A stretch of DNA of 64,000 nucleotides from positions 98,092 to 162,091 of the forward strand of contig MFGJ01000006.1 of the NCBI GenBank assembly GCA_001778235.1, in the 5' to 3' direction. The notes under the pieces are model-generated. The model made no database searches, had not been told where the DNA came from, and saw only the letters and a list, made by a program, of their open reading frames with translations. Both the position numbers and the translations under genes were made by a program. The stretch is from Candidatus Falkowbacteria bacterium RIFOXYC2_FULL_36_12 (lineage in GTDB: Bacteria; Patescibacteriota; Patescibacteriia; UBA11705). Positions 2,982 to 54,792 of the stretch are shown piece by piece; the stretch's first letter is position 1, and every line of letters starts with the position of its first letter.

Positions 2982-3110
2982 TCGTGTTCGTAGGGTTGAA
3001 GGTGAGTGATTGTGATTGTGATTGGGAATATATGGATTATGTTAGAACTGAATTAATAATTAGACATATTGATAAATTTATGAATTTTTACTATAATTTG
3101 ATATAATTAT

Positions 3111-3198
3111 GGTGAGGTGGCCGAGTGGTTGAAGGCGCACGCTTGGAAAGCGTGTTGGGTGAAAGCTCACGCAGGTTCGAATCCTGTCCTCACCGCCA
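3111..3198 (+). tRNA. tRNA-Ser(GGA), long variable arm, encoded CCA
   Basis: acceptor GGTGAGG/CCTCACC, anticodon stem CACGC/GCGTG with loop TTGGAAA, T-loop TTCGAAT, discriminator G, 88 nt. Confidence 0.85.
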
Positions 3199-3310
3199 GT
3201 AGTTTTAGATTCGATACATGACACTATAGATATTTTGTTTAATTGAATTATCGGTTCTCCTCTAGAGGTGGAACCGCATCGGTTCGGCTTGAGCTCACGG
3301 CCGAAGGTTG

Positions 3311-3330
3311 GCGGAGAATCCTGTCCTCGT
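3311..3330 (+). other. degenerate partial copy of tRNA-Ser 3' end (pseudo-tRNA fragment / possible att scar)
   Basis: GAATCCTGTCCTC (3316-3328) identical to the T-arm/acceptor segment of tRNA-Ser 3176-3192; no complete cloverleaf can be drawn. Confidence 0.35.
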
Positions 3331-3353
3331 TGCTGGATTAACAACTTTGAACT

Positions 3354-4271
3354 ATGTATACATACAAGCATCCAAAACCAATAGTAATAAAGCTCACCGA
3401 TGAGCTTGGTTTTGATTTGCGACAAAAAGCGGCAGAGTATATTACTGCAAATCAAAATAGGACTGGCGCAGAACGAGGAAGTTCAGAGGAACAAGGGTTT
3501 GGTGCACTTGCAGAAATGGTTATACGGAACAAGCTGGGTATGTCAGAGATAAATTCAGAGGATCATCCTTTGGGATATGATCTTTTACTCCCATCTGGAA
3601 TTAAAGTTGATGTTAAATGTCGCGGTGGCGCACTACCATTTAAAGAGGAATATGAAAGTAGTGATGGTATTGCAAGAGAAGCAAAACATAATTTCTTTGC
3701 GCGACAGATGCATGACGAAAGACTGGACGCTGATATTTATGTCATGACCCACCTCGAAACTCCTAGCAAAAGAGAGCTTCCGGGCACGACTAGACAAAGA
3801 AAATGGGTACTTTATATCTGTGGTTGGGTCTCAAAGGAGCGAGTATCTAACGAGGGTGTTTACTTGCCACGCGGTTCTCTTACCGAACAAGGCAGAACGT
3901 GGTTCACTTATCGTGGGCAAGAAATAGAGTATTATAACCGCAACCTCAATGGATTAGAGTCAGTTCAGGATTTATTAAGTATTGAACAGATGGATGTCAC
4001 GAAAGACAGTGTCCACAAGGGCGACCTAAATCTTACTTCGGTTGATGCCATTAGAATTGCCTATGACCTTATTGGTCGTGGTGTGCTTTCGGAACAACAC
4101 CTGGCTTTTGTTCAAAATGAAACTGGCATAAATAAAATCGTGAAGCCAGTTTTACACTCAAATCAGTATTTTCATCTTTTACATTGGCTCAAAGAAAAAG
4201 GTGCGTTGACCGATAGCGAGATTGAAAAAGCGCGAAAAATTCTTCAAGAAGAGCCGTATAGTGGAATCTAA
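3354..4271 (+). CDS. putative Type II restriction endonuclease (PD-(D/E)XK-like)
   Basis: motif GYDLLLPSGIKVDVKCRG (D...D-V-K); convergent and 5 bp from a DNA methyltransferase; GC (~45%) above window background. Confidence 0.45.
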   Translation: MYTYKHPKPIVIKLTDELGFDLRQKAAEYITANQNRTGAERGSSEEQGFGALAEMVIRNKLGMSEINSEDHPLGYDLLLPSGIKVDVKCRGGALPFKEEYESSDGIAREAKHNFFARQMHDERLDADIYVMTHLETPSKRELPGTTRQRKWVLYICGWVSKERVSNEGVYLPRGSLTEQGRTWFTYRGQEIEYYNRNLNGLESVQDLLSIEQMDVTKDSVHKGDLNLTSVDAIRIAYDLIGRGVLSEQHLAFVQNETGINKIVKPVLHSNQYFHLLHWLKEKGALTDSEIEKARKILQEEPYSGI

Positions 4272-4276
4272 AATAG

Positions 4277-5365
4277 CTATAGTTTGTTACTAGCTGCTTT
4301 GTATTGAGTTTCAGCTTCTTTGATACGTTTTTTGGAAACTTCAATATAATCAATTTTGTGTTTCTTGAAGAGATAAACATCTTCGTTTTTTTCAATCCCA
4401 ATAAATTTTCTTCCCTCCAAAACCGCAGAGACTAGAAAGCTGCCGCTCCCGCAAGTATTATCTAGCACTACATCGCCTTCCTTCGTAAAAGTACGAATTA
4501 GATAACGACCAAGCTCCACTGGTTTTTGTGTCGGATGATAAACTTCACCTTCGCTCTCGGCGGTTTTGAAATAGACAACATCAGTTGGATATCTTTCGCC
4601 ATTACTTTTTACCTCAACGGTTTTGAAATCGCCATAACTTCCGGTAAATTGATCTTTTCTAAAACCCTTATTATAAGGCTCGCCATAAGTCATCTGAGGA
4701 TTATATGCGGGCTGACTCTTGTAAAAAATGCAAACATCCTCGTGTTTTCTCAACGGTTGTTTTTTGGCATTAAGAAAGTTTGTTGGTTTGGATTTTACCC
4801 AAGTGATTTTGTATTTAAATAATTTTGGATTAGATAACATCAGATTAGCAGTAAAAAGTCCTTGTCCAGTAAGAGCAATGACACCCTTATCTTTTATAAT
4901 ACGCTCGTAGTGGCTCCAAAGTTGGTCCATAGGGATAACGCTGTCCCAGTGATTTTGTGTGGTGCCATATGGCAAATCACACAAAATCATATCAACTGAT
5001 TTTGCAGGGATTTTTTTCATCACTTCCAAGCAATCTCCCTTAATGACATGATTCATGAAGTTGGAGATTGGTTTTTCGCTGTTTTTTATTGTTTTAGCTT
5101 TTACTTCCGCCACCCTGATATTTTTTCGTAAATACCAAAGACAGTAAGTGTTTACCTGCAACCCTTCTTGTTGAGCGCGTTGCTCTAACACTAGATAAGA
5201 GTCAGTTCCGAGTAAGTTGCGTAATTCATTACTTCCAAGATTAGCTATGATTTTATACAAATCTATATTTCTCTTGCCAAAAGCCAAAACAACGCCCTTC
5301 GTTTTCGGGTTTGTTTCTTTATGGTCTGAAAAATAGACTGCTTTGAAGATTTGGTTGCTTGCCAT
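4277..5365 (-). CDS. DNA methyltransferase, beta-class N6-adenine/N4-cytosine (motif IV before motif I)
   Basis: IKGDCLEVMKKIPAKSVDMILCDLPYG (motif IV region), HPTQKPVEL, DNTCGSGS (motif I); ~100 aa N-terminal extension of unknown function. Confidence 0.8.
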   Translation of the reverse strand: MASNQIFKAVYFSDHKETNPKTKGVVLAFGKRNIDLYKIIANLGSNELRNLLGTDSYLVLEQRAQQEGLQVNTYCLWYLRKNIRVAEVKAKTIKNSEKPISNFMNHVIKGDCLEVMKKIPAKSVDMILCDLPYGTTQNHWDSVIPMDQLWSHYERIIKDKGVIALTGQGLFTANLMLSNPKLFKYKITWVKSKPTNFLNAKKQPLRKHEDVCIFYKSQPAYNPQMTYGEPYNKGFRKDQFTGSYGDFKTVEVKSNGERYPTDVVYFKTAESEGEVYHPTQKPVELGRYLIRTFTKEGDVVLDNTCGSGSFLVSAVLEGRKFIGIEKNEDVYLFKKHKIDYIEVSKKRIKEAETQYKAASNKL

Positions 5366-5989
5366 ATGTGTATTATAGTATGATACCTATGCAAAAAGAA
5401 GTCCATTTATCCACATGAGTAATAAAAACAAGAGTAATTTCTTTATTTGATTATTTTATAAAGCTGGAAATAAGTTCCGCAATTTTGTATTTCGTAAGCG
5501 TTTAGGAAGAAAAGAATGGTCAGCAAAATTCATTTTTTCCATAATGAACATCTTTAGTGATTTTGAATCAACGGTCAGAATTACGAAGTCAATCAACGCC
5601 GTGAGGTAACTAGCCGTGAATCGGAGACATCAGTGCCATCAAGAAACTCACAGAGGAGTATTGCCGGGGACATTTTTTGTGAGAATTCTTCTCCAAGGTC
5701 AGTGGAGGTATTAAATAAGTATAAATTGAAAAATTAACTAATGTGAGTTATACTTAACTCAATAAAAAACTTGAAATTGTTAATGCTCGTGGTTTCGAAA
5801 TTCATTTTGCCCGCCCGATTCATCCGAGTCGCGCAAGGCGTAGCGAGGACAGAATTCCGTTCGAGCTATTTCAAGAATACACCGCCCGTAGTTTTGAAAA
5901 ACGAGTAGTAAAGGATTTTATTTTTCAATGGATTTTGAAAGTAAAAATTGGCAAAATAGGTAAATCCGCAAGGGATTTGAACCAAGGTT

Positions 5990-6385
5990 ATGAAAGTAGT
6001 AATAGCAGGAAGTGCGAAGCTTCAAAATGAAATACAAAAATGGATAGAATACTGGAATAGCAAAAACGACTATTTAGTTTTAGATTACCCAAAAGCTATT
6101 CCTGAAGATAATTTTGATGAACTTTATCCCGAGGTTCATAAAAACTTTTTCAAAAATATAACGGAAGCTGATGTACTTTTTATTGCTAACTATAAAAAGA
6201 ACGGAATTGGTGGATATATTGGAGCAGAAACTTTTGCCGAATTAGGATTTGGATTAGCCCAGAAATTGATTTACGGTAAAAAAATAAGATTGATACTTGC
6301 AAATATGCCAGTAAAAGAAGTTGCCTGTTATGATGAAATATTTTTATGGAAAAAACTCGGCTGGATAGATGAAATTATTGGATAA
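5990..6385 (+). CDS. nucleoside 2-deoxyribosyltransferase-like protein (weak)
   Basis: flavodoxin-like pattern VIAGS...GGYIGAETFAELGFGLA; adjacent to NUDIX gene. Confidence 0.3.
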   Translation: MKVVIAGSAKLQNEIQKWIEYWNSKNDYLVLDYPKAIPEDNFDELYPEVHKNFFKNITEADVLFIANYKKNGIGGYIGAETFAELGFGLAQKLIYGKKIRLILANMPVKEVACYDEIFLWKKLGWIDEIIG

Positions 6386-6507
6386 GAGATATATACATCA
6401 TTTTTATCAAAACAGTATGGAATGTTGCATATATCAATAAACTTTAATTGCTTCAAAACAAAATTTGTTAAAATGAGTACCCCGTAAGGGATTTGAACTA
6501 AAATAAT

Positions 6508-7014
6508 ATGGAATTAATGGAACAAAAAAAGAGTATGGTAAATACGACTTTAGTATTATTGATAAAACGGCAAGATAATAATATTTCAGAAATATGTTTA
6601 GCAATGAAAAAAAGAGGGTTTGGTCAAGGGCGATGGAATGGGGTTGGCGGTAAATTGGAAGCGGGAGAAACGATTGAACAAGGTGCGGTCAGAGAAACAA
6701 AAGAAGAAATAAATGTGGTTCCAATTGATTTAAAAAAAATAGCAGAATTGACTTTCAGATTTATTGATAATCCAGAATGGGATCAGATTGTTTATGTTTA
6801 TTTTTGTGAAAAATGGAAAAATAATCCGATCGAAACAGAAGAAATGAAACCTAAATGGTTCCGAATCACTGATTTGCCTTTTGAGCAGATGTGGCCAGAT
6901 GATAAATTTTGGTTAACAGAAGTACTGAAGGATAAATTGGTTAAGGCAGAATTTAACTATGAAAAGAATGATATTATTCTGGATAAAAATGTCTTAATTA
7001 CAGATAAATTATAA
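6508..7014 (+). CDS. NUDIX hydrolase (MutT-like)
   Basis: Nudix box GGKLEAGETIEQGAVRETKEEINV. Confidence 0.8.
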   Translation: MELMEQKKSMVNTTLVLLIKRQDNNISEICLAMKKRGFGQGRWNGVGGKLEAGETIEQGAVRETKEEINVVPIDLKKIAELTFRFIDNPEWDQIVYVYFCEKWKNNPIETEEMKPKWFRITDLPFEQMWPDDKFWLTEVLKDKLVKAEFNYEKNDIILDKNVLITDKL

Positions 7015-7018
7015 ATCT

Positions 7019-7591
7019 ATGAAAAAAGTCATTTTAGTTCATGGCTGGGATGGTAGTCCAGAAAATGCTTGGTTCCCTTGGCTTCGGGAAAATCTGATTA
7101 AGAATGAGTTTGAAGTTATTGTTCCTGCAATGCCAAACCCAAGCCAGCCAAATATTGCTATGTGGATAAAGCAAATTGGTGATTCAGTTAAAGAGATTGA
7201 TGAACAAACATATTTTGTGGGACACGGTATTGGTTGTCAGGCGGTTGCAAGATTCTTGGAAAAAGTATCAGACGGAAAAAAGGTTGGTGGAGTAGTTTTT
7301 GTCGCTGGTTTTTTTCAGAAATTAAACAATGAAGATGATGATGAGATAGATAAAGAAATAGCAAATGATTGGTTAAAGGCACCAATTAATTTTGCTAAAG
7401 TCGCATCGCATATTCATAAAAGTTTGGCGATTTTTTCTGATGATGATCCTGTTGTGCCTTTAGTTAATATTGATGACTTTAGAGATAAGCTTGGGTGCAA
7501 AATTATAATTGAAAAAAATAAAGGTCATTTTGATGATTATGCCAAAGTTTTAGAGTTGCAAAGTGTGTTAGATTTTTTACTAAAGAAATAA
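7019..7591 (+). CDS. alpha/beta-hydrolase fold protein (RBBP9/YdeN-like serine hydrolase family)
   Basis: VILVHGWDGSPENAWFPWL N-terminus, GHGIG nucleophile-elbow-like motif, ~190 aa. Confidence 0.45.
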   Translation: MKKVILVHGWDGSPENAWFPWLRENLIKNEFEVIVPAMPNPSQPNIAMWIKQIGDSVKEIDEQTYFVGHGIGCQAVARFLEKVSDGKKVGGVVFVAGFFQKLNNEDDDEIDKEIANDWLKAPINFAKVASHIHKSLAIFSDDDPVVPLVNIDDFRDKLGCKIIIEKNKGHFDDYAKVLELQSVLDFLLKK

Positions 7592-7598
7592 ATAATTT

Positions 7599-8072
7599 AT
7601 GAAAAAGTTAGTTATATTAATTGTTGCAGTATTGATTGTTGGTTTTGGTTGGTGGTATGTTTCAACAAATTATTCAAGTCCAGATGAAAATGAACCAAAA
7701 GCTGAAATTTTCAATCAGGAGAGATTAGCTGATTATGAGGGTCAGAAATCAATCCAATTGACTGATGTCTCTGGTGGTGGAGCAGTTGGAACTGCTTGGT
7801 TGGTTTTCAAGGATGGTCAAACATACAATAGAGTGATGGCAAGTGATTTGTTAGGTTTGGAAAATAATGATTTTTATGAAGGTTGGTTGGTAAATCCAAA
7901 AACTAAACAGTATTTTTCAACAGGAAAACTAAATAACCTCGGTGATGGGAATTATTATTTGGAATTTAACAATAATTCTATTAAGGAAGAATATAATTTT
8001 GTAGTAATTACCCTCGAGTCTGATGATGGAGATAGTTTTCCGGCAAAACATATTTTAGAAGGTGGGTTCTGA
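7599..8072 (+). CDS. hypothetical membrane-anchored protein
   Basis: ORF with N-terminal TM helix; no recognisable motif. Confidence 0.4.
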   Translation: MKKLVILIVAVLIVGFGWWYVSTNYSSPDENEPKAEIFNQERLADYEGQKSIQLTDVSGGGAVGTAWLVFKDGQTYNRVMASDLLGLENNDFYEGWLVNPKTKQYFSTGKLNNLGDGNYYLEFNNNSIKEEYNFVVITLESDDGDSFPAKHILEGGF

Positions 8073-8191
8073 ACCTAAAAAATCCGTGAAAACGGATTTT
8101 TCGTTTGCTTGAAATTGGAATAAATTATATAATCAAATTGCAATAAAAATTGGTGACAATAGGTGTTATTTATAGATTAATATAAAATTTT

Positions 8192-8800
8192 ATGGGAAAA
8201 AAGGTTTGGGTTGCAATCATGATCGCTGTATTGGTTTCATTGGTTGTGTCGCTCGCAGTAATTTGGTGGTTTTTTCATTACATGACAAGTTCAATGTTAT
8301 TACAACAAAGTGCAAATGATTCAATTCAAAGTGAGATGAGAGATGAAATCAAACAATTGAAAACTGGAACAGCGGTTACAGTCAGTGATAGTACGAAGAT
8401 AGAGGATAGTAATAATGGTGATCAGGCAGATTCTTCAAGCGATAATTCAAGTGAAATTTCGTCTGTTAAAGCTTGTCCAGCTGATAAACATTGTGTTAAT
8501 GGTATTTGTGTGCCGATTGCAACCCCTGATGAATATGGTTGTTCGGTCAATATGGTTTGCGACCAAGGTGAGGTTTGTAGAAATGGTTTATGTGTAAATG
8601 AAGAGACAGCAATAGATATTTTCGGTTGTCATCCTGCCATGACTTGTGATGCTGGTCAGGTGTGTAGACATGGTTTGTGTGTAAATGTGGGAACTGCTCT
8701 TGATGTTTATGGCTGTAGTTCATCGGTAAAGTGTGAAACTGGTCAGGTTTGTCGTAGTGGAAGTTGTGTTGCAGTCGGTAGTGCGTGTTTAGAAAAATAA
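8192..8800 (+). CDS. membrane-anchored Cys-rich repeat protein (4 x C-x4-C-x2-G-x-V-C-R-x-G-x-C-V units)
   Basis: N-terminal TM helix, Ser/Asp-rich linker, four ~35-aa cysteine repeats; followed by terminator at 8812-8842. Confidence 0.6.
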   Translation: MGKKVWVAIMIAVLVSLVVSLAVIWWFFHYMTSSMLLQQSANDSIQSEMRDEIKQLKTGTAVTVSDSTKIEDSNNGDQADSSSDNSSEISSVKACPADKHCVNGICVPIATPDEYGCSVNMVCDQGEVCRNGLCVNEETAIDIFGCHPAMTCDAGQVCRHGLCVNVGTALDVYGCSSSVKCETGQVCRSGSCVAVGSACLEK

Positions 8801-8844
8801 AATATTTTATAATAAAAAACCAGCAATGAAGCTGGTTTTTCGGT

Positions 8845-9264
8845 TTATTTTATTTTCTGGTTGATTTTTTGAATATAGTTTTTTATTGATCTCAATTCTT
8901 TGTTAACTAGCATTATTTCTCTTTCAGCTTTTCGGTTGATATGATAATCATATTCAAATCTTATTCTATCTCGTTCAGATGTACGATTTTGGCTCATCAA
9001 AATTATTGGTGCTTGGACCGCGGCTAAACTGGATAGACCAAAATTTAATAAAATATATGGATATGGGTCCCACGTCTGAAATATTAGCTGAACGGTATTT
9101 ATGGTCATCCAAAGGGCCATTACAATAAAAAGTGCGATAATGAATGTCCAACTACCGATTGAAGATGTTACCCAGTCAGCGGCTTTTTGACCGCGAGAAA
9201 GATTTTTTTTGTTTTCAGCTGGAATCGTGGGGCGTTGATTGGTATTGTTTATTCGACTGGGCAT
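8845..9264 (-). CDS. hypothetical membrane protein
   Basis: ORF with 2-3 predicted TM helices. Confidence 0.4.
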   Translation of the reverse strand: MPSRINNTNQRPTIPAENKKNLSRGQKAADWVTSSIGSWTFIIALFIVMALWMTINTVQLIFQTWDPYPYILLNFGLSSLAAVQAPIILMSQNRTSERDRIRFEYDYHINRKAEREIMLVNKELRSIKNYIQKINQKIK

Positions 9265-9267
9265 AGT

Positions 9268-10233
9268 TTAGAAATTTAGAGGGATATAATAAAATTCAAT
9301 GTCATTATAGTTGTTGGAATTGAATTGTTTGATGTAAAAAACTCGATTTTCTCCTTCTTTGAATAAGTCCATGGTATTTTTTTCTAGGTCAATGTGATAA
9401 ATGGCAGATTTCGCATTGTCAGCTGAAGACTCAACTGCGGCGAAAACTAAATTTTTACCATTTGGAGAAAAAGTTATGTCTCCATATTGATTGTACTTTT
9501 CTGGAACCAAATATTTGTGGACATCTTTGGATGCAAGGTTTAGAACAAAAATATTGTCTTCCCATCTGTAAGTAAGTAATTTTTCATCTACTGATAAATC
9601 TTCAAGAATACCTTTTGTGTCCATACCAAAAATCTGTTCAAATGATTTATCTCGAAGGTTGTATTTGTAGAGATTATGAGCGCCAACTCCGGAATAAAGT
9701 ATTAAACCACCAAAACCTAATGGTTCGGTGTAGAAGTAAACATTGTCTGCTGTTTGCTTGAAAATCCCCATGAACATACCATCATTATTAGTTTCAGCTG
9801 GGAATTCAAGTTGTTTGATAACAGTGTCACCATCTTTGAGGGTGAAGGATGTTGGAAATCCGCCTTTGGTTTCATCATAATTTCCTTGGATTGTTTCAAT
9901 TTTTATGTCTGCAATTGGAGGATTTTCTTGGAGTTTTTTTATCAATTCTGCGTTGGTGGTTGATTGTTCTTCAGTCAGAGCAAGGGCGTCTTTGGCTTGT
10001 TGCAGTTCAGATTGTAGCGTTGATTTTTCTTGTGAAAATTGATTGCCTTGCCAGAAGTAAACTCCGGCTCCAGCCCCACCGGCACCAATGATAAGAGCGA
10101 CTAGTCCGATAATAATAGTCAGCACTGTGCTGGTGCCACTAGAACTTGGTGATGTTTGAGGAATTTCTTCGTTTGGTAAAAGAGGTTTTTCTTCTCGACC
10201 AAGATTGTTTGGCATAGTGTTAATGTTATCCAT
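9268..10233 (-). CDS. membrane-anchored protein with coiled-coil and PD40/TolB-like beta-propeller repeats
   Basis: TM helix (GLVALIIGAGGAGAGVYFW), coiled-coil segment, SPNGKNLVF PD40-like repeat. Confidence 0.4.
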   Translation of the reverse strand: MDNINTMPNNLGREEKPLLPNEEIPQTSPSSSGTSTVLTIIIGLVALIIGAGGAGAGVYFWQGNQFSQEKSTLQSELQQAKDALALTEEQSTTNAELIKKLQENPPIADIKIETIQGNYDETKGGFPTSFTLKDGDTVIKQLEFPAETNNDGMFMGIFKQTADNVYFYTEPLGFGGLILYSGVGAHNLYKYNLRDKSFEQIFGMDTKGILEDLSVDEKLLTYRWEDNIFVLNLASKDVHKYLVPEKYNQYGDITFSPNGKNLVFAAVESSADNAKSAIYHIDLEKNTMDLFKEGENRVFYIKQFNSNNYNDIEFYYIPLNF

Positions 10234-10376
10234 AAAATAAATTTAATTACATGCCAATATTATAACATAATTTGATTTAATCATGAAAATATTGCTGTTG
10301 ATTAAATATAGAGAAATGGTAAGATTGAATTAAGTTTGAAGGTGATTGAGTTTTGAAGTTTACAAATAAAGATTTT

Positions 10377-10600
10377 TTGAATGCTTCGCAGAGTCCCCCC
10401 TGATCAAGTCCGGGGCATGCTTTTTGGCAGTCTGCCTGTTGCCTGCCTGCCGCCTGCCTGCCTGTAGGCAGGGTAGGCAGGCAAAAAGAATGTGGAGATT
10501 CAATGCGAATTGCTTGTTCATACTTAGTGCATTGATTACACGCAGAATCCTCCCAGACCTGCCTTCATCAAGATTACGGCAGGCAAGCCCCGATGTTGGT
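10377..10600. repeat. composite intergenic repeat: family C (GCTTCGCAGAGTCCCCCC..GATCAAGTCCGG) + CCTGCCTG tandem hairpin + family A hairpin
   Basis: 10377-10426 matches 41925-41975; 10436-10492 is (CCTGCCTG)n inverted repeat; 10552-10600 is family A copy. Confidence 0.6.
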
Positions 10601-10700
10601 AATGTTTGTGGTTTTATCACGAGAGAAATGAATATATTCTCAAAAAAAAAGATACGAGTAAAAAGTTAAAAGTTAAAAAAAATTAGTAAATTTATCTTTT

Positions 10701-54255: not shown

Positions 54256-54329
54256 GGGCCGTTAGCTCCAATTGGTAGAGCGGCGGATTGTGGTTCCGTT
54301 TGTTACGGGTTCGAATCCCGTACGGCCCA
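54256..54329 (+). tRNA. tRNA-His(GUG), non-canonical: no encoded G-1, A73, no encoded CCA
   Basis: acceptor GGGCCGT/ACGGCCC, anticodon stem GCGGA/TCCGT with loop TTGTGGT, T-loop TTCGAAT; nucleotide -1 is C, discriminator is A. Confidence 0.7.
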
Positions 54330-54333
54330 CTCC

Positions 54334-54368
54334 AGGCGAAATGAAAGATTTCATTTCGCCTGTTTTTT
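54334..54368 (+). terminator. rho-independent terminator after tRNA-His
   Basis: AGGCGAAATGAAA-GATTT-CATTTCGCCT followed by T7. Confidence 0.5.
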
Positions 54369-54479
54369 TACACTGAAATATGTTAATATTTTGCTATTGA
54401 CATTTTATCGAGTGTTTGATATTATAAATATGTTGAAAATATATTAAATGCAATTGAACAAGGAAGATGTCTAAAAACC

Positions 54480-54668
54480 TTCAATTTTAGCGAATCAGGG
54501 CCAGTGAAAGCCTGATATTGAATTTTTGGACTACACACCCTTGGAGCAGCTTGAGCAAAACTCAAGACGAGATTGTACTCGTAAAAATACACCCTGATGA
54601 TTGTCAGGCGCTTAATTAAAAGACTCTCTTTTCTTTAATTGCAAAACAATCAGGGAAAAGAGAGTTTT
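54480..54668 (+). ncRNA. candidate structured small RNA ending in a strong terminator
   Basis: consecutive hairpins (TCAGGGCC..GCCTGA; CTTGAG-CAAAA-CTCAAG; ACGAG-ATTGT-ACTCGT; CCTGA-TGATTG-TCAGG) then ACTCTCTTTTC...GAAAAGAGAGT + T6; no ORF. Confidence 0.25.
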
Positions 54669-54715
54669 TTGTATTAAAAAATATAAGCTTTTTAATAATA
54701 TTTATCAATAATTAT

Positions 54716-54792
54716 GGCGGCTGTAGCTCAGTTGGTAGAGCGCTGGTTTGTGGTACCAGTGGTCGCGGGTTCAAATCCCGTCGGTCGCCCCA
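54716..54792 (+). tRNA. tRNA-His(GUG), canonical bacterial type with encoded G-1, C73 and CCA
   Basis: G-1 (54716) opposite C73 (54789); acceptor GCGGCTG/CGGTCGC (two G-U), anticodon stem CTGGT/ACCAG with loop TTGTGGT, T-loop TTCAAAT. Confidence 0.8.

What the first reader, a model, noticed from the sequence alone, without database searches (positions are those of the whole stretch)
3111..5365. Candidate Type II restriction-modification cassette next to tRNA-Ser with a degenerate tRNA 3'-end copy
- The beta-class N6A/N4C methyltransferase (4277..5365, minus strand) carries HPTQKPVEL, DNTCGSGS and a ...SVDMILCDLPYG motif.
- It is convergent with, and 5 bp from, a 305-aa ORF (3354..4271) that carries a PD-(D/E)XK-like motif GYDLLLPSGIKVDVKCRG. 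That ORF is a plausible cognate endonuclease.
- Both genes are more GC-rich (~45%) than the window.
- Immediately upstream is tRNA-Ser(GGA) (3111-3198).
- 118 bp after that tRNA lies a 13-nt exact copy of its T-arm/acceptor segment (GAATCCTGTCCTC, 3316-3328). It sits in a tRNA-like but non-foldable context.
- This pattern resembles the scar of tRNA-targeted integration, or a tRNA pseudogene.
- The methyltransferase also has an unexplained ~100-aa N-terminal extension.
Basis: partly seen in the sequence, partly recalled or inferred. Interest (0 to 1): 0.6.

Follow-up and report, generated by a model that had tools for sequence, protein, structure and literature searches.

The report
Mobile restriction-modification cassette beside tRNA-Ser
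A two-gene "cut foreign DNA / mark own DNA" defence cassette sits just after a serine tRNA gene in a tiny groundwater bacterium; it is an ordinary kind of system, but its cutting enzyme belongs to an undescribed family and its relatives often sit beside tRNA genes.

Summary
The sequence features are real, except the GC claim: the genes are 41% and 37% GC, not about 45%, against 34% for the window.

The locus, in Candidatus Falkowbacteria RIFOXYD2_FULL_35_9, holds an intact Type II restriction-modification pair.
- **Methyltransferase:** a beta-class amino-methyltransferase with a DLPY motif, probably m6A.
- **305-aa partner:** no match in any sequence library. It has near-invariant D76, D86-x-K88. 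A confident AlphaFold model (pLDDT 93) matches phage proteins annotated as restriction endonucleases.
- **Linkage:** the two genes are convergent neighbours in every locus read, about a dozen genomic contexts across Patescibacteria. Conservation runs from the R start codon to a conserved M promoter block, about 2.06 kb.
- **Insertion:** syntenic Falkowbacteria relatives lack the cassette.

A better bracket is a 15/16 repeat of the tRNA 3' end plus flank (3191-3206 / 5880-5895).

Five of 11 cassette contexts lie just downstream of a co-oriented tRNA. One is flanked by 136-nt repeats that each hold a whole tRNA-Gln, with no integrase. The insertion mechanism is unresolved.

The methyltransferase N-terminal extension is a conserved, separable module, probably regulatory. 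Some relatives carry LexA in that position.

The parts
3069..3097 (+). Sigma-70-like promoter of tRNA-Ser (TTGATA-17-TATAAT, 11/12). It is the only + strand promoter-like site upstream of the R gene.
3111..3198 (+). tRNA-Ser(GGA), intact, folds as a cloverleaf.
3191..3206 (+). Left copy of the 16-nt direct repeat CACCGCCAGTAGTTTT: the last 8 nt of the tRNA plus 8 nt of downstream flank.
3245..3335 (+). psi1, a decayed tRNA-Ser-like copy. It does not fold as a tRNA.
   Evidence: Gapped alignment score 42, reached by 0 of 500 dinucleotide shuffles. Fold z +0.40. No Rfam tRNA hit at E<=10.
3336..3353 (+). 18-nt leader GATTAACAACTTTGAACT with no Shine-Dalgarno. L015 and L038 share it, and in both it directly follows a tRNA or tRNA-like 3' end.
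3354..4271 (+). R gene, 305 aa. An N-terminal PD-(D/E)XK-type nuclease domain (about aa 1-200; D76, D86, K88) is followed by a C-terminal helical domain (about aa 204-294). The family is uncharacterised.
4277..5086 (-). Methyltransferase core, from M94 (MNHVIKGDC...). Beta-class N6A/N4C enzyme with DLPY motif IV, HPTQKP and DNTCGSGS motif I.
5087..5365 (-). N-terminal extension of the methyltransferase. Aa 1-82 (nt 5120-5365) form a conserved module and the rest is a variable linker. Predicted DNA-binding regulator.
   Evidence: LexA occupies the same position in L048 and L051.
5366..5387 (-). Conserved M promoter block: GGTATCATAC (5378-5387, contains the palindrome GTATcATAC), TATAAT (5372-5377), then 6 nt to the ATG. 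This implies a leaderless mRNA.
   Evidence: Invariant in 7 of 7 cassettes.
5406..5415 (-). Invariant TGTGGATAAA, 28 nt upstream of TATAAT. Its complement contains TTATCCACA, the DnaA-box consensus. It marks the outer limit of cassette conservation.
5416..5821 (.). Non-coding spacer specific to this species. No ORF of 50 aa or more, and no homology to other islands.
5822..5895 (+). psi2, a second tRNA-Ser-derived segment. It ends in the right copy of the direct repeat CACCGCCCGTAGTTTT (5880-5895, 15/16). Positions 5851-5884 are shared 31/34 with the end of the related island in L038.
5845..5857 (-). Inverted 12/13 copy of the 13-mer (GAATTCTGTCCTC).

Best explanation
The region carries an intact, horizontally acquired Type II restriction-modification cassette of a family widespread in Patescibacteria (CPR).

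**How it most likely works.**
- The 305-aa protein is the restriction endonuclease. It has a PD-(D/E)XK catalytic domain with D76/D86/K88 and a C-terminal helical domain, probably for DNA recognition.
- The convergent gene is its cognate beta-class amino-methyltransferase, probably m6A because motif IV is DLPY.
- M is made from its own strictly conserved promoter. TATAAT lies 6 nt from the ATG, so the mRNA is probably leaderless.
- That promoter is flanked by two invariant elements that are candidate operators.
- The conserved 82-aa N-terminal module of M is inferred to be a DNA-binding autoregulator. Relatives carry LexA in that position.
- This copy has lost the XRE-type C gene that precedes R in some relatives. 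R has no promoter or ribosome-binding site of its own.
- R is therefore inferred to be expressed weakly, by read-through from the tRNA-Ser promoter.

**How it got here.** The conserved 2.06-kb unit (3354-5415) lies in a roughly 2.7-kb island immediately after tRNA-Ser(GGA). The island is littered with decayed tRNA-Ser-derived pieces. A 15/16 repeat of the tRNA 3' end plus flank brackets it. The cassette entered at the tRNA gene with duplication of tRNA sequence. This happened either by insertion with long target duplication, by recombination through tRNA homology, or through an integrase supplied in trans. No recombinase is encoded in the island.

**Shown and inferred.**
- Shown: gene content, linkage, conservation limits, motifs, predicted fold, repeats, absence from relatives.
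- Inferred: enzymatic activities, specificity, regulation, insertion mechanism.
For: **R-M identity**
- M matches PF01555 at 6.8e-26, PADLOC MTase_II at 7e-65, and CcrM and M.RsrI at about 1e-14.
- R and M are convergent neighbours in every context examined.
- An XRE/HTH_3 C-like ORF ends 2-22 nt before R in L047, L048 and, truncated, L039.
- D76, D86 and K88 are near-invariant down to 23-30% identity.
- The AF2 model has pLDDT 93.4 and pTM 0.89.
- Foldseek against BFVD gives 35 hits at E<=1e-3, best 2e-10, TM(target) 0.7-0.83. Two of them are annotated 'Restriction endonuclease'.
- The top PDB hits are DpnI and EcoRV, but they are not significant.
- dN/dS is 0.03-0.10 for R and for the M N-terminal module.

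**Mobility**
- Conservation starts at the R ATG and ends at TGTGGATAAA upstream of M.
- Flanking genes differ in every lineage. In Kuenenbacteria the cassette lies between mreB and mreC.
- Syntenic Falkowbacteria L034/L035 keep bCASP-HAD-DsbA ... Ser_hydrolase-RskA-DUF1003-DnaG but have no cassette.
- GC3 is raised.
- Two of the window's three ACGT sites lie in the cassette.

**tRNA link**
- Repeats in the window.
- A co-oriented tRNA lies within 200 nt upstream of R in 5 of 11 contexts: Ser, Trp, a class II tRNA, Ala and Gln.
- L051/L052 have 136-nt, 99% identical direct repeats. Each holds a whole tRNA-Gln, and only R and M lie between them.

**Regulation**
- The promoter block is invariant in 7 of 7 cassettes.
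- LexA-MTase fusions occur in relatives.
- No + strand promoter or terminator is predicted between the tRNA and R.
Against: - R has no sequence match in Pfam, NCBIfam, PADLOC, PHROGs or PDB, even with a profile.
- The nuclease call therefore rests on motif, context and similarity to predicted phage structures carrying automatic annotation.
- Nuclease and methyltransferase activities, the recognition site and methylation are untested.
- No true empty site was found. All contigs of the same species carry the cassette, and the nearest other genus has a rearranged locus.
- Only 13-16-nt stretches of the tRNA-derived copies are well preserved.
- The right-end motif is shared with L038, whose adjacent tRNA is different. 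The repeats may therefore have travelled with the island rather than arising in place.
- The regulator role of the N-terminal module rests on analogy and a non-significant ribbon-helix-helix-like hit (E 0.81).
- Read-through expression of R is pure inference.
Confidence: 0.75

Rival explanations
1. This is a classical integrase-mediated genomic islet. An integrative element carrying the R-M genes recombined site-specifically into the 3' end of tRNA-Ser. The 16-nt repeats are attL and attR. The integrase was later lost or acts in trans.
For: - A 15/16 direct repeat of the tRNA 3' end brackets the island.
- A tRNA lies next to the cassette in five contexts.
- The sequence just inside the right repeat is conserved between the window and L038 islands, as an attP arm would be.
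- Furuta et al. 2010 describe RM-plus-integrase units integrated in tRNA genes (PMC2853133).
Against: - No integrase or any other recombinase ORF is present in the window island, in L051, where only R and M lie between the repeats, or in L038, L050 or L015.
- The tRNAs involved differ between contexts (Ser, Trp, Ala, Gln). That is unlike the fixed specificity of one tyrosine integrase.
- The L051 repeat spans 46 nt of host sequence upstream of the tRNA plus the whole gene, which is atypical for an attP core.
- A scan of viral contigs found no element carrying this tRNA 3' end.
Confidence: 0.2
2. The tRNA-like fragments are debris of a decaying local tRNA-Ser gene cluster, unrelated to how the cassette arrived. 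The cassette simply landed in a dispensable, variable intergenic region.
For: - The syntenic locus in the related Falkowbacteria L034/L035 holds two tRNA-Ser genes (GGA and CGA) 1.1 kb apart, inside a variable segment.
- psi1 does not fold and scores below any tRNA model.
- A further inverted T-arm-like fragment lies at about 5966-5984.
Against: - The fragments match the window's own GGA gene, including its 5' and 3' flanks. They do not match the CGA gene of the relative.
- Cassette relatives sit beside tRNAs in four other unrelated contexts. One has a clean 136-nt tRNA-containing duplication.
- The psi2 end motif recurs in L038.
Confidence: 0.2
3. The 305-aa protein is not a restriction enzyme. 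The methyltransferase would be a solitary or regulatory enzyme, and the partner would be another DNA-binding or repair protein, or a methyl-directed nuclease in the manner of DpnI.
For: - No sequence-family assignment was possible.
- The best, though non-significant, PDB match is the methyl-dependent enzyme DpnI.
- dN/dS of about 0.05 is unusually strict for a restriction enzyme.
Against: - The convergent pairing with the methyltransferase is obligate across all contexts.
- A C-protein gene precedes it in several relatives.
- The D...DxK triad is near-invariant.
- The fold matches phage proteins annotated as restriction endonucleases.
- A methyl-directed nuclease paired with a methyltransferase of the same specificity would kill the cell.
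Confidence: 0.07

Closest known systems
C-protein-controlled Type IIP R-M cassettes (for example PvuII, BamHI, Esp1396I: a C-R operon plus M)
   Same: Separate small R and M genes that are tightly linked. Several relatives (L047, L048) have an XRE/HTH_3 ORF ending just before R, which is the classical C-R arrangement.
   Different: - The window copy has no C gene.
- R belongs to a family with no match in Pfam, NCBIfam, PADLOC or PDB sequences.
- M carries an extra N-terminal module.
- Specificity is unknown.
Beta-class amino-methyltransferases M.RsrI, CcrM and M.MboIIA (PF01555)
   Same: The motif order is IV (DxPY), then the target-recognition region, then motif I (FxGxG), with HPTQKP. Alignable at about 1e-14.
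   Different: Motif IV is DLPY rather than DPPY. There is an 82-aa N-terminal module plus linker. The target sequence is unknown.
Methyltransferases with an N-terminal DNA-binding autoregulatory domain (SsoII/EcoRII-type; from my own knowledge of the literature)
   Same: An extra N-terminal module on the methyltransferase, next to a conserved promoter or operator. In sister cassettes the position holds a complete LexA repressor.
   Different: - Those examples are C5-methyltransferases with a helix-turn-helix.
- Here the module has no detectable family. There is only a weak ribbon-helix-helix-like hit (E 0.81).
- DNA binding is untested.
R-M 'insertion with long target duplication' (Nobusato 2000; Furuta et al. 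2010, PMC2853133)
   Same: The insert holds only R and M genes and no mobility gene, and is flanked by direct repeats of target DNA. The L051/L052 relative fits exactly, with 136-nt, 99% identical repeats.
   Different: - In the window only 13-16-nt stretches of the repeats survive, inside decayed copies of about 75-90 nt.
- The duplicated target is a tRNA gene in several cases. Furuta et al. treat repeats with tRNA similarity as a possible sign of site-specific recombination when an integrase homolog is also present in the insert.
- No empty site is available.
tRNA-targeted genomic islands and prophages
   Same: Location immediately 3' of a tRNA gene, with a direct repeat of the tRNA 3' end at the far boundary.
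   Different: No integrase. The island is only about 2.7 kb. Different tRNAs are used in different genomes.
PD-(D/E)XK restriction endonucleases DpnI and EcoRV (fold level)
   Same: Catalytic D...(D/E)xK on the beta-sheet core. As in DpnI, an N-terminal nuclease domain is followed by a C-terminal helical domain.
   Different: Foldseek E-values are 0.05-0.2, so not significant. Sequence identity is about 10%. Membership of either family is not claimed.

Membership tests
Type II restriction-modification system | A DNA methyltransferase with a SAM-binding motif I and a catalytic motif IV | tested here: met
   PF01555 at 6.8e-26. DLPY and DNTCGSGS align to CcrM and M.RsrI.
Type II restriction-modification system | A separate, adjacent gene encoding a nuclease, consistently linked to the methyltransferase | tested here: met
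   Convergent neighbours in every context examined. Nuclease motif and fold.
Type II restriction-modification system | R cleaves, and M protects, the same specific DNA sequence | not testable with these tools
   Needs biochemistry or a methylome. Palindrome statistics gave only a weak GATC lead.
PD-(D/E)XK nuclease superfamily | A conserved acidic/acidic/lysine triad (D ... (D/E)xK) | tested here: met
   D76, D86 and K88 are near-invariant in relatives down to 23% identity.
PD-(D/E)XK nuclease superfamily | An alpha-beta-beta-beta-alpha-beta core fold matching known members | tested here: inconclusive
   - The model is confident (pLDDT 93.4).
- There are significant matches to predicted phage proteins annotated as restriction endonuclease (E 2e-10).
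- Solved structures reach only E 0.05 (DpnI, EcoRV).
Beta-class N6A/N4C methyltransferase | Circular permutation with motif IV N-terminal to motif I | tested here: met
   DLPY lies at about aa 129-132 and DNTCGSGS at about aa 301-308.
C-protein-controlled R-M | A small HTH controller gene upstream of R | tested here: not met
   The window has tRNA-like DNA up to 18 nt before the ATG. The C-like ORF is present only in relatives L047, L048 and, truncated, L039.
Integrase-mediated tRNA-targeted island | A tyrosine or serine recombinase gene within the island | tested here: not met
   No such ORF in 3199-5895, nor between the repeats of L051.
Integrase-mediated tRNA-targeted island | Direct repeats of the tRNA 3' end at both island boundaries | tested here: met
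   3191-3206 / 5880-5895, 15 of 16 nt.
Integrase-mediated tRNA-targeted island | An empty attB in related genomes | tested here: inconclusive
   Same-species contigs all carry the island. The next genus lacks the cassette but its locus is rearranged. The metagenome scan found no matching locus.
R-M insertion with long target duplication (Furuta 2010 criteria) | The insert contains R and M, is under 20 kb, and has no other mobility gene | tested here: met
R-M insertion with long target duplication (Furuta 2010 criteria) | Flanking direct repeats longer than 30 bp that are single-copy in an empty site | tested here: inconclusive
   - In the window only 13-16-nt exact stretches survive, within decayed copies.
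- The criterion is met in relative L051, with 136-nt repeats at 99% identity.
- No empty site is available.
Methyltransferase with N-terminal autoregulatory DNA-binding domain | An N-terminal domain with a DNA-binding fold that binds its own promoter | tested here: inconclusive
   - The module is conserved and separable.
- The LexA swap in relatives is suggestive.
- There is only a non-significant ribbon-helix-helix-like hit.
- DNA binding cannot be tested with these tools.

The most novel reading that the evidence does not exclude
The 2-kb R-M pair is a self-sufficient selfish element with no recombinase. It preferentially lands just 3' of tRNA genes, through R-induced breaks or tRNA microhomology, and duplicates the tRNA. 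It then exploits host machinery found in any bacterium. R, which has no promoter, uses tRNA read-through transcription. M uses a leaderless promoter with a DnaA box. This would let it establish in very different CPR phyla.
Probability: 0.12. Interest if true: 0.7.

Novelty: new member of a known kind. Interest (0 to 1): 0.4.

Why it matters
- **An unrecognised restriction-enzyme family.** It adds a putative family of only about 54 clusters at 50% identity among 1.84 billion representatives, yet it is present across many Patescibacteria lineages.
- **Invisible to current surveys.** Homology-based surveys cannot see this family. Part of the reported excess of methyltransferases over restriction enzymes in CPR genomes (bioRxiv 10.64898/2026.07.13.738296) may therefore be an annotation gap.
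- **A tractable example of R-M mobility without a recombinase.** The family has clean cassette limits, recurrent tRNA adjacency, and in one case a whole-tRNA duplication.
- **Testable regulatory variants.** These are RHH-like or LexA modules fused to the methyltransferase, and a conserved leaderless promoter with a DnaA-box-like element.

None of this changes the category. It remains a Type II R-M system.

Tried and rejected
- **Sequence-family searches for R.** Pfam, NCBIfam, PADLOC, PHROGs and PDB gave nothing, with a single sequence or a profile. tblastn against plasmids and phages also gave nothing.
- **First AF2 run.** With only close homologues the model was poor (pLDDT 60.5). It was replaced by a run with distant relatives.
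- **Empty-site search.**
  - The genome-contig scan with the beta-CASP neighbour returned only distant non-CPR loci.
  - The metagenome scan with the tRNA 3' end returned unrelated tRNA-Ser genes.
  - Viral scans for the tRNA end and for the right-end motif found nothing.
- **Apparent deletion of the catalytic region in L013.** It is only a run of N.
- **'One tRNA copy split by the insertion'.** The idea came from the 13-mer and the 16-mer abutting in tRNA coordinates. It was rejected as an event in this lineage, because the right junction is conserved in L038.
- **psi1 as a functional tRNA-like processing signal.** Rejected, because it does not fold.
- **High amino-acid identity as proof of recent transfer.** Rejected. 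Synonymous sites are saturated for most pairs, so the identity reflects strong purifying selection.
- **Integrase or gene remnants in the 574-nt right spacer.** None were found, including remnants of the 575-aa ORF of L038.
- **N-terminal module compared with LexA.** No similarity.
- **Recognition site from palindrome avoidance.** Only a weak, non-specific GATC signal appeared.
Full report
**1. The observation**

The window is a low-GC genome (34.4%). It is identical to contigs of Candidatus Falkowbacteria RIFOXYD2_FULL_35_9 / GCA_001780315.1.

- ARAGORN and Rfam place tRNA-Ser(GGA) at 3111-3198.
- A 305-aa ORF (3354-4271, +) and a 362-aa ORF (4277-5365, -) are convergent with 5 nt between their stop codons.
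- The exact 13-mer GAATCCTGTCCTC occurs at 3179-3191, inside the tRNA, and again at 3316-3328. With up to two mismatches the window has 5 hits against 0.70 expected, and 0 of 100 shuffles reach 5.

The '~45% GC' claim is wrong.
- The genes are 41.3% and 37.3% GC, and the cassette is 38.8%.
- 9.4% of equal-sized windows reach the cassette's value.
- GC3 is modestly raised, at 0.34/0.35 against 0.23-0.28 in neighbouring genes.

**2. The methyltransferase**

It matches PF01555 at 6.8e-26, a PADLOC Type II methyltransferase model at 7e-65 and phrog_67. It aligns to CcrM and M.RsrI, with DLPY (motif IV) ahead of DNTCGSGS (motif I). That order defines the beta class. The aspartate in motif IV suggests N6-adenine methylation. 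This last point rests on general knowledge of the family, not on a test here.

**3. The 305-aa protein**

No sequence library recognises it. This covers Pfam, NCBIfam, PADLOC, PHROGs, PDB sequences, plasmids and phages, and a profile search did no better.

It has 520 homologues.
- The best 120 are 77-93% identical, and almost all are exactly 305 aa.
- They come from many CPR lineages, including Kuenen-, Gracili-, Azam-, Nealson-, Pace- and Lloydbacteria.
- An exhaustive search of 1.84 billion cluster representatives finds only 54 clusters.

An AF2 model built with only close homologues was poor (pLDDT 60.5). Adding the distant relatives gave pLDDT 93.4 and pTM 0.89. The model has an alpha/beta N-terminal domain, with D86/K88 on a strand, and a helical C-terminal domain.

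Fold comparison gave mixed results.
- Foldseek found nothing significant among solved structures. The top hits were DpnI (E 0.05) and EcoRV.
- It found 35 significant matches among predicted viral structures, best 2e-10 with TM(target) 0.7-0.83. Two of them are annotated 'Restriction endonuclease'.

dN/dS against eight relatives is 0.03-0.10 with synonymous sites often saturated. The gene is therefore under strong constraint and is not decaying.

**4. Linkage and cassette limits**

In every context read, the protein is convergent with the same methyltransferase while the surrounding genes differ. In Kuenenbacteria the pair, together with an AbiEii toxin-antitoxin module, is wedged between mreB and mreC.

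DNA conservation between cassettes has sharp limits.
- It begins at the R start codon.
- It ends about 50 nt upstream of the M start codon.
- That makes a 2.06-kb unit, window 3354-5415.

Some relatives have an XRE/HTH_3 ORF ending 2-22 nt before R: L047, L048 and a truncated remnant in L039. This is the classical controller-protein arrangement. The window copy lacks it.

**5. Horizontal origin**
- The host's DsbA neighbour has no non-self relative above about 62% identity.
- Related Falkowbacteria (L034/L035) keep the flanking synteny: bCASP-HAD-DsbA on one side, Ser_hydrolase-RskA-DUF1003-DnaG on the other. Between them they have a different segment, with tRNA-Ser(GGA), tRNA-Ser(CGA) and a DEAD helicase, and no cassette.
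- The window almost lacks ACGT, with 3 sites against about 47 expected. Two of the three sites lie in the cassette.
- All contigs of the same species carry the cassette, so no true empty site was found.

**6. The tRNA debris**

- psi1 aligns along the whole tRNA-Ser, including the 6-nt upstream flank. The score is 42, reached by 0 of 500 shuffles.
- It does not fold as a tRNA, with z +0.40.
- It lies between the tRNA and the cassette, so it cannot be the far att site of an island containing the R-M genes.

On the far side, 5880-5895 repeats the last 8 nt of the tRNA plus 8 nt of its downstream flank, matching 15 of 16. It sits within a second degenerate copy, psi2, which scores 33 with 0 of 500 shuffles reaching that. 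An inverted 12/13 copy of the 13-mer lies at 5845-5857.

Related contigs add three observations.
- **L015.** It is identical to the window from 3362 to 5913. To the left of 3336 it has GC-richer DNA ending in a bona fide tRNA-Trp, whose CCA abuts the shared 18-nt leader. The three SNPs at 3341, 3353 and 3361 suggest a mosaic, either in the cell or in the assembly, with another organism's cassette.
- **L038.** This is the closest cassette, at 84% nucleotide identity. It has a class II tRNA end, about 60 nt, a tRNA-3'-like piece ending CCGCCA, and then the same leader. After an extra 575-aa ORF, its contig ends with a 34-nt match (31/34) to window 5851-5884. The right-end module is therefore associated with the island and is not simply local.
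- **L050 and L051/L052.** L050 has tRNA-Ala 198 nt upstream of R. In L051/L052 the cassette is bracketed by 136-nt, 99% identical direct repeats. Each contains 46 nt of upstream sequence, a whole tRNA-Gln(TTG) and 18 nt of downstream sequence. Only R and M lie between them.

In total, 5 of 11 contexts have a co-oriented tRNA within 200 nt upstream of R.

No island contains a recombinase gene.
- The L051 relative meets the insert-content and repeat-length criteria of Furuta et al. 2010 for 'R-M insertion with long target duplication' (PMC2853133).
- The same paper notes that tRNA-containing repeats can also arise from site-specific integration.
- I cannot decide between long target duplication, Campbell-type recombination through tRNA homology, and an integrase acting in trans.

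**7. The N-terminal extension and regulation**

Aa 1-82 of M are conserved at the protein level across cassettes, with dN/dS 0.06-0.09, and are followed by a variable linker. Some assemblies call the module as a separate ORF of about 98 aa. It has no Pfam match, and there is only a non-significant ribbon-helix-helix-like hit (HP0222, E 0.81).

In sister cassettes (L048, L051-53) the same position holds a complete LexA, with LexA_DNA_bind plus Peptidase_S24 domains. This points to a swappable DNA-binding regulator.

Upstream, all seven cassettes of the window type share the same layout:
- TGTGGATAAA, whose complement is the DnaA-box consensus TTATCCACA;
- then 28 nt in six of the seven;
- then GGTATCATAC and TATAAT;
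- then about 6 nt to the ATG.

This implies a leaderless M transcript with two candidate operator sites. The 9-mer alone is not rare in the window, with 2 hits against 1.1 expected. Its invariance across cassettes whose synonymous sites are saturated is the evidence that it matters.

R has no Shine-Dalgarno and no predicted promoter. No terminator lies between it and the strong tRNA-Ser promoter at 3069-3097. I therefore infer weak read-through expression. In the other cassettes that lack a C gene, R also follows a co-oriented tRNA or protein gene.

**8. Verdict**

This is an intact, horizontally acquired Type II R-M cassette with a previously unclassified PD-(D/E)XK-type endonuclease family. 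It sits in a tRNA-Ser-associated islet.

The att-scar reading of the 13-mer is only partly right, and the GC argument was overstated.

The system is a new member of a known kind. Three features deserve modest specialist interest:
- integrase-free association with tRNA genes;
- modular regulators fused to the methyltransferase;
- a strongly conserved leaderless promoter.

Noticed in passing
window, whole 64 kb; ACGT sites at 3897, 4325, 9072: ACGT is almost absent, with 3 sites against about 47 expected (z about -9). Two of the three sites lie inside the R-M cassette. The host seems to avoid ACGT, which suggests another ACGT-specific restriction pressure. The cassette has not adapted to it.
   Followed up: partly
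L048 6905-8356; L051 1350-2807 (also L052, L053): Sister cassettes encode a fusion of a complete LexA repressor (LexA_DNA_bind plus Peptidase_S24) to the same methyltransferase core. An 11-mer GACTTTCGATT / AATCGAAAGTC is shared upstream of both. This may be an SOS-responsive R-M system.
   Followed up: partly
L051 218-353 and 3034-3169 (also L052): A 136-nt, 99% identical direct repeat brackets an insert that holds only R and M. Each copy contains a whole tRNA-Gln(TTG) with 46 nt of upstream and 18 nt of downstream flank. There is also an extra tRNA 5'-like fragment at 182-213.
   Followed up: partly
L039-L046 (Kuenenbacteria), about 3362-7003: An AbiEii toxin-antitoxin pair plus the R-M cassette is inserted between mreB and mreC, forming a small defence islet inside a core cell-shape gene cluster. 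The C gene there is truncated to 43 aa.
   Followed up: no
L015 1-8103 against window 3336-10628: This is a mosaic contig.
- Its left 792 nt (46% GC) end in tRNA-Trp.
- It has three SNPs at window 3341, 3353 and 3361.
- It is then identical to the window up to 5913.
- A substituted patch covers 5914-6016, including the start of ORF 5990.
- It is identical again after that.
This is either real recombination or an assembly chimera through the shared cassette.
   Followed up: partly
window 54256-54792: Two different tRNA-His(GTG) genes lie 386 nt apart. Between them are a TTGACA-17-TATAAT-like promoter (about 54398-54428) and a hairpin plus T-run (about 54626-54668). There is no ORF of 60 aa or more and no Rfam match. 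This is a candidate small RNA.
   Followed up: partly
window 5966-5984 (-): An inverted T-arm-like sequence (GGTTCAAATCCC, the universal tRNA T-loop motif) lies just upstream of the 131-aa ORF. It is one more tRNA-derived fragment in this intergenic region.
   Followed up: no
window 3390-3407 (+): A terminator-like hairpin followed by GGTTTT lies 36 nt inside the R coding region. It overlaps the conserved KLTDELGF codons and could be an attenuator, or could be chance.
   Followed up: no
L038 2271-3998: A 575-aa ORF with no Pfam match lies between the methyltransferase and the shared right-end motif of the related island. It may be additional cargo or a defence gene. No remnant of it exists in the window spacer.
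   Followed up: partly
window, L001, L003 and L039 flanks against L034/L036: GATC is moderately under-represented in the four cassette-bearing hosts sampled (z -2.7 to -6.3). It is not among the five most depleted palindromes in two cassette-free relatives. This is a weak lead for the recognition site, and the sample is small.
   Followed up: partly
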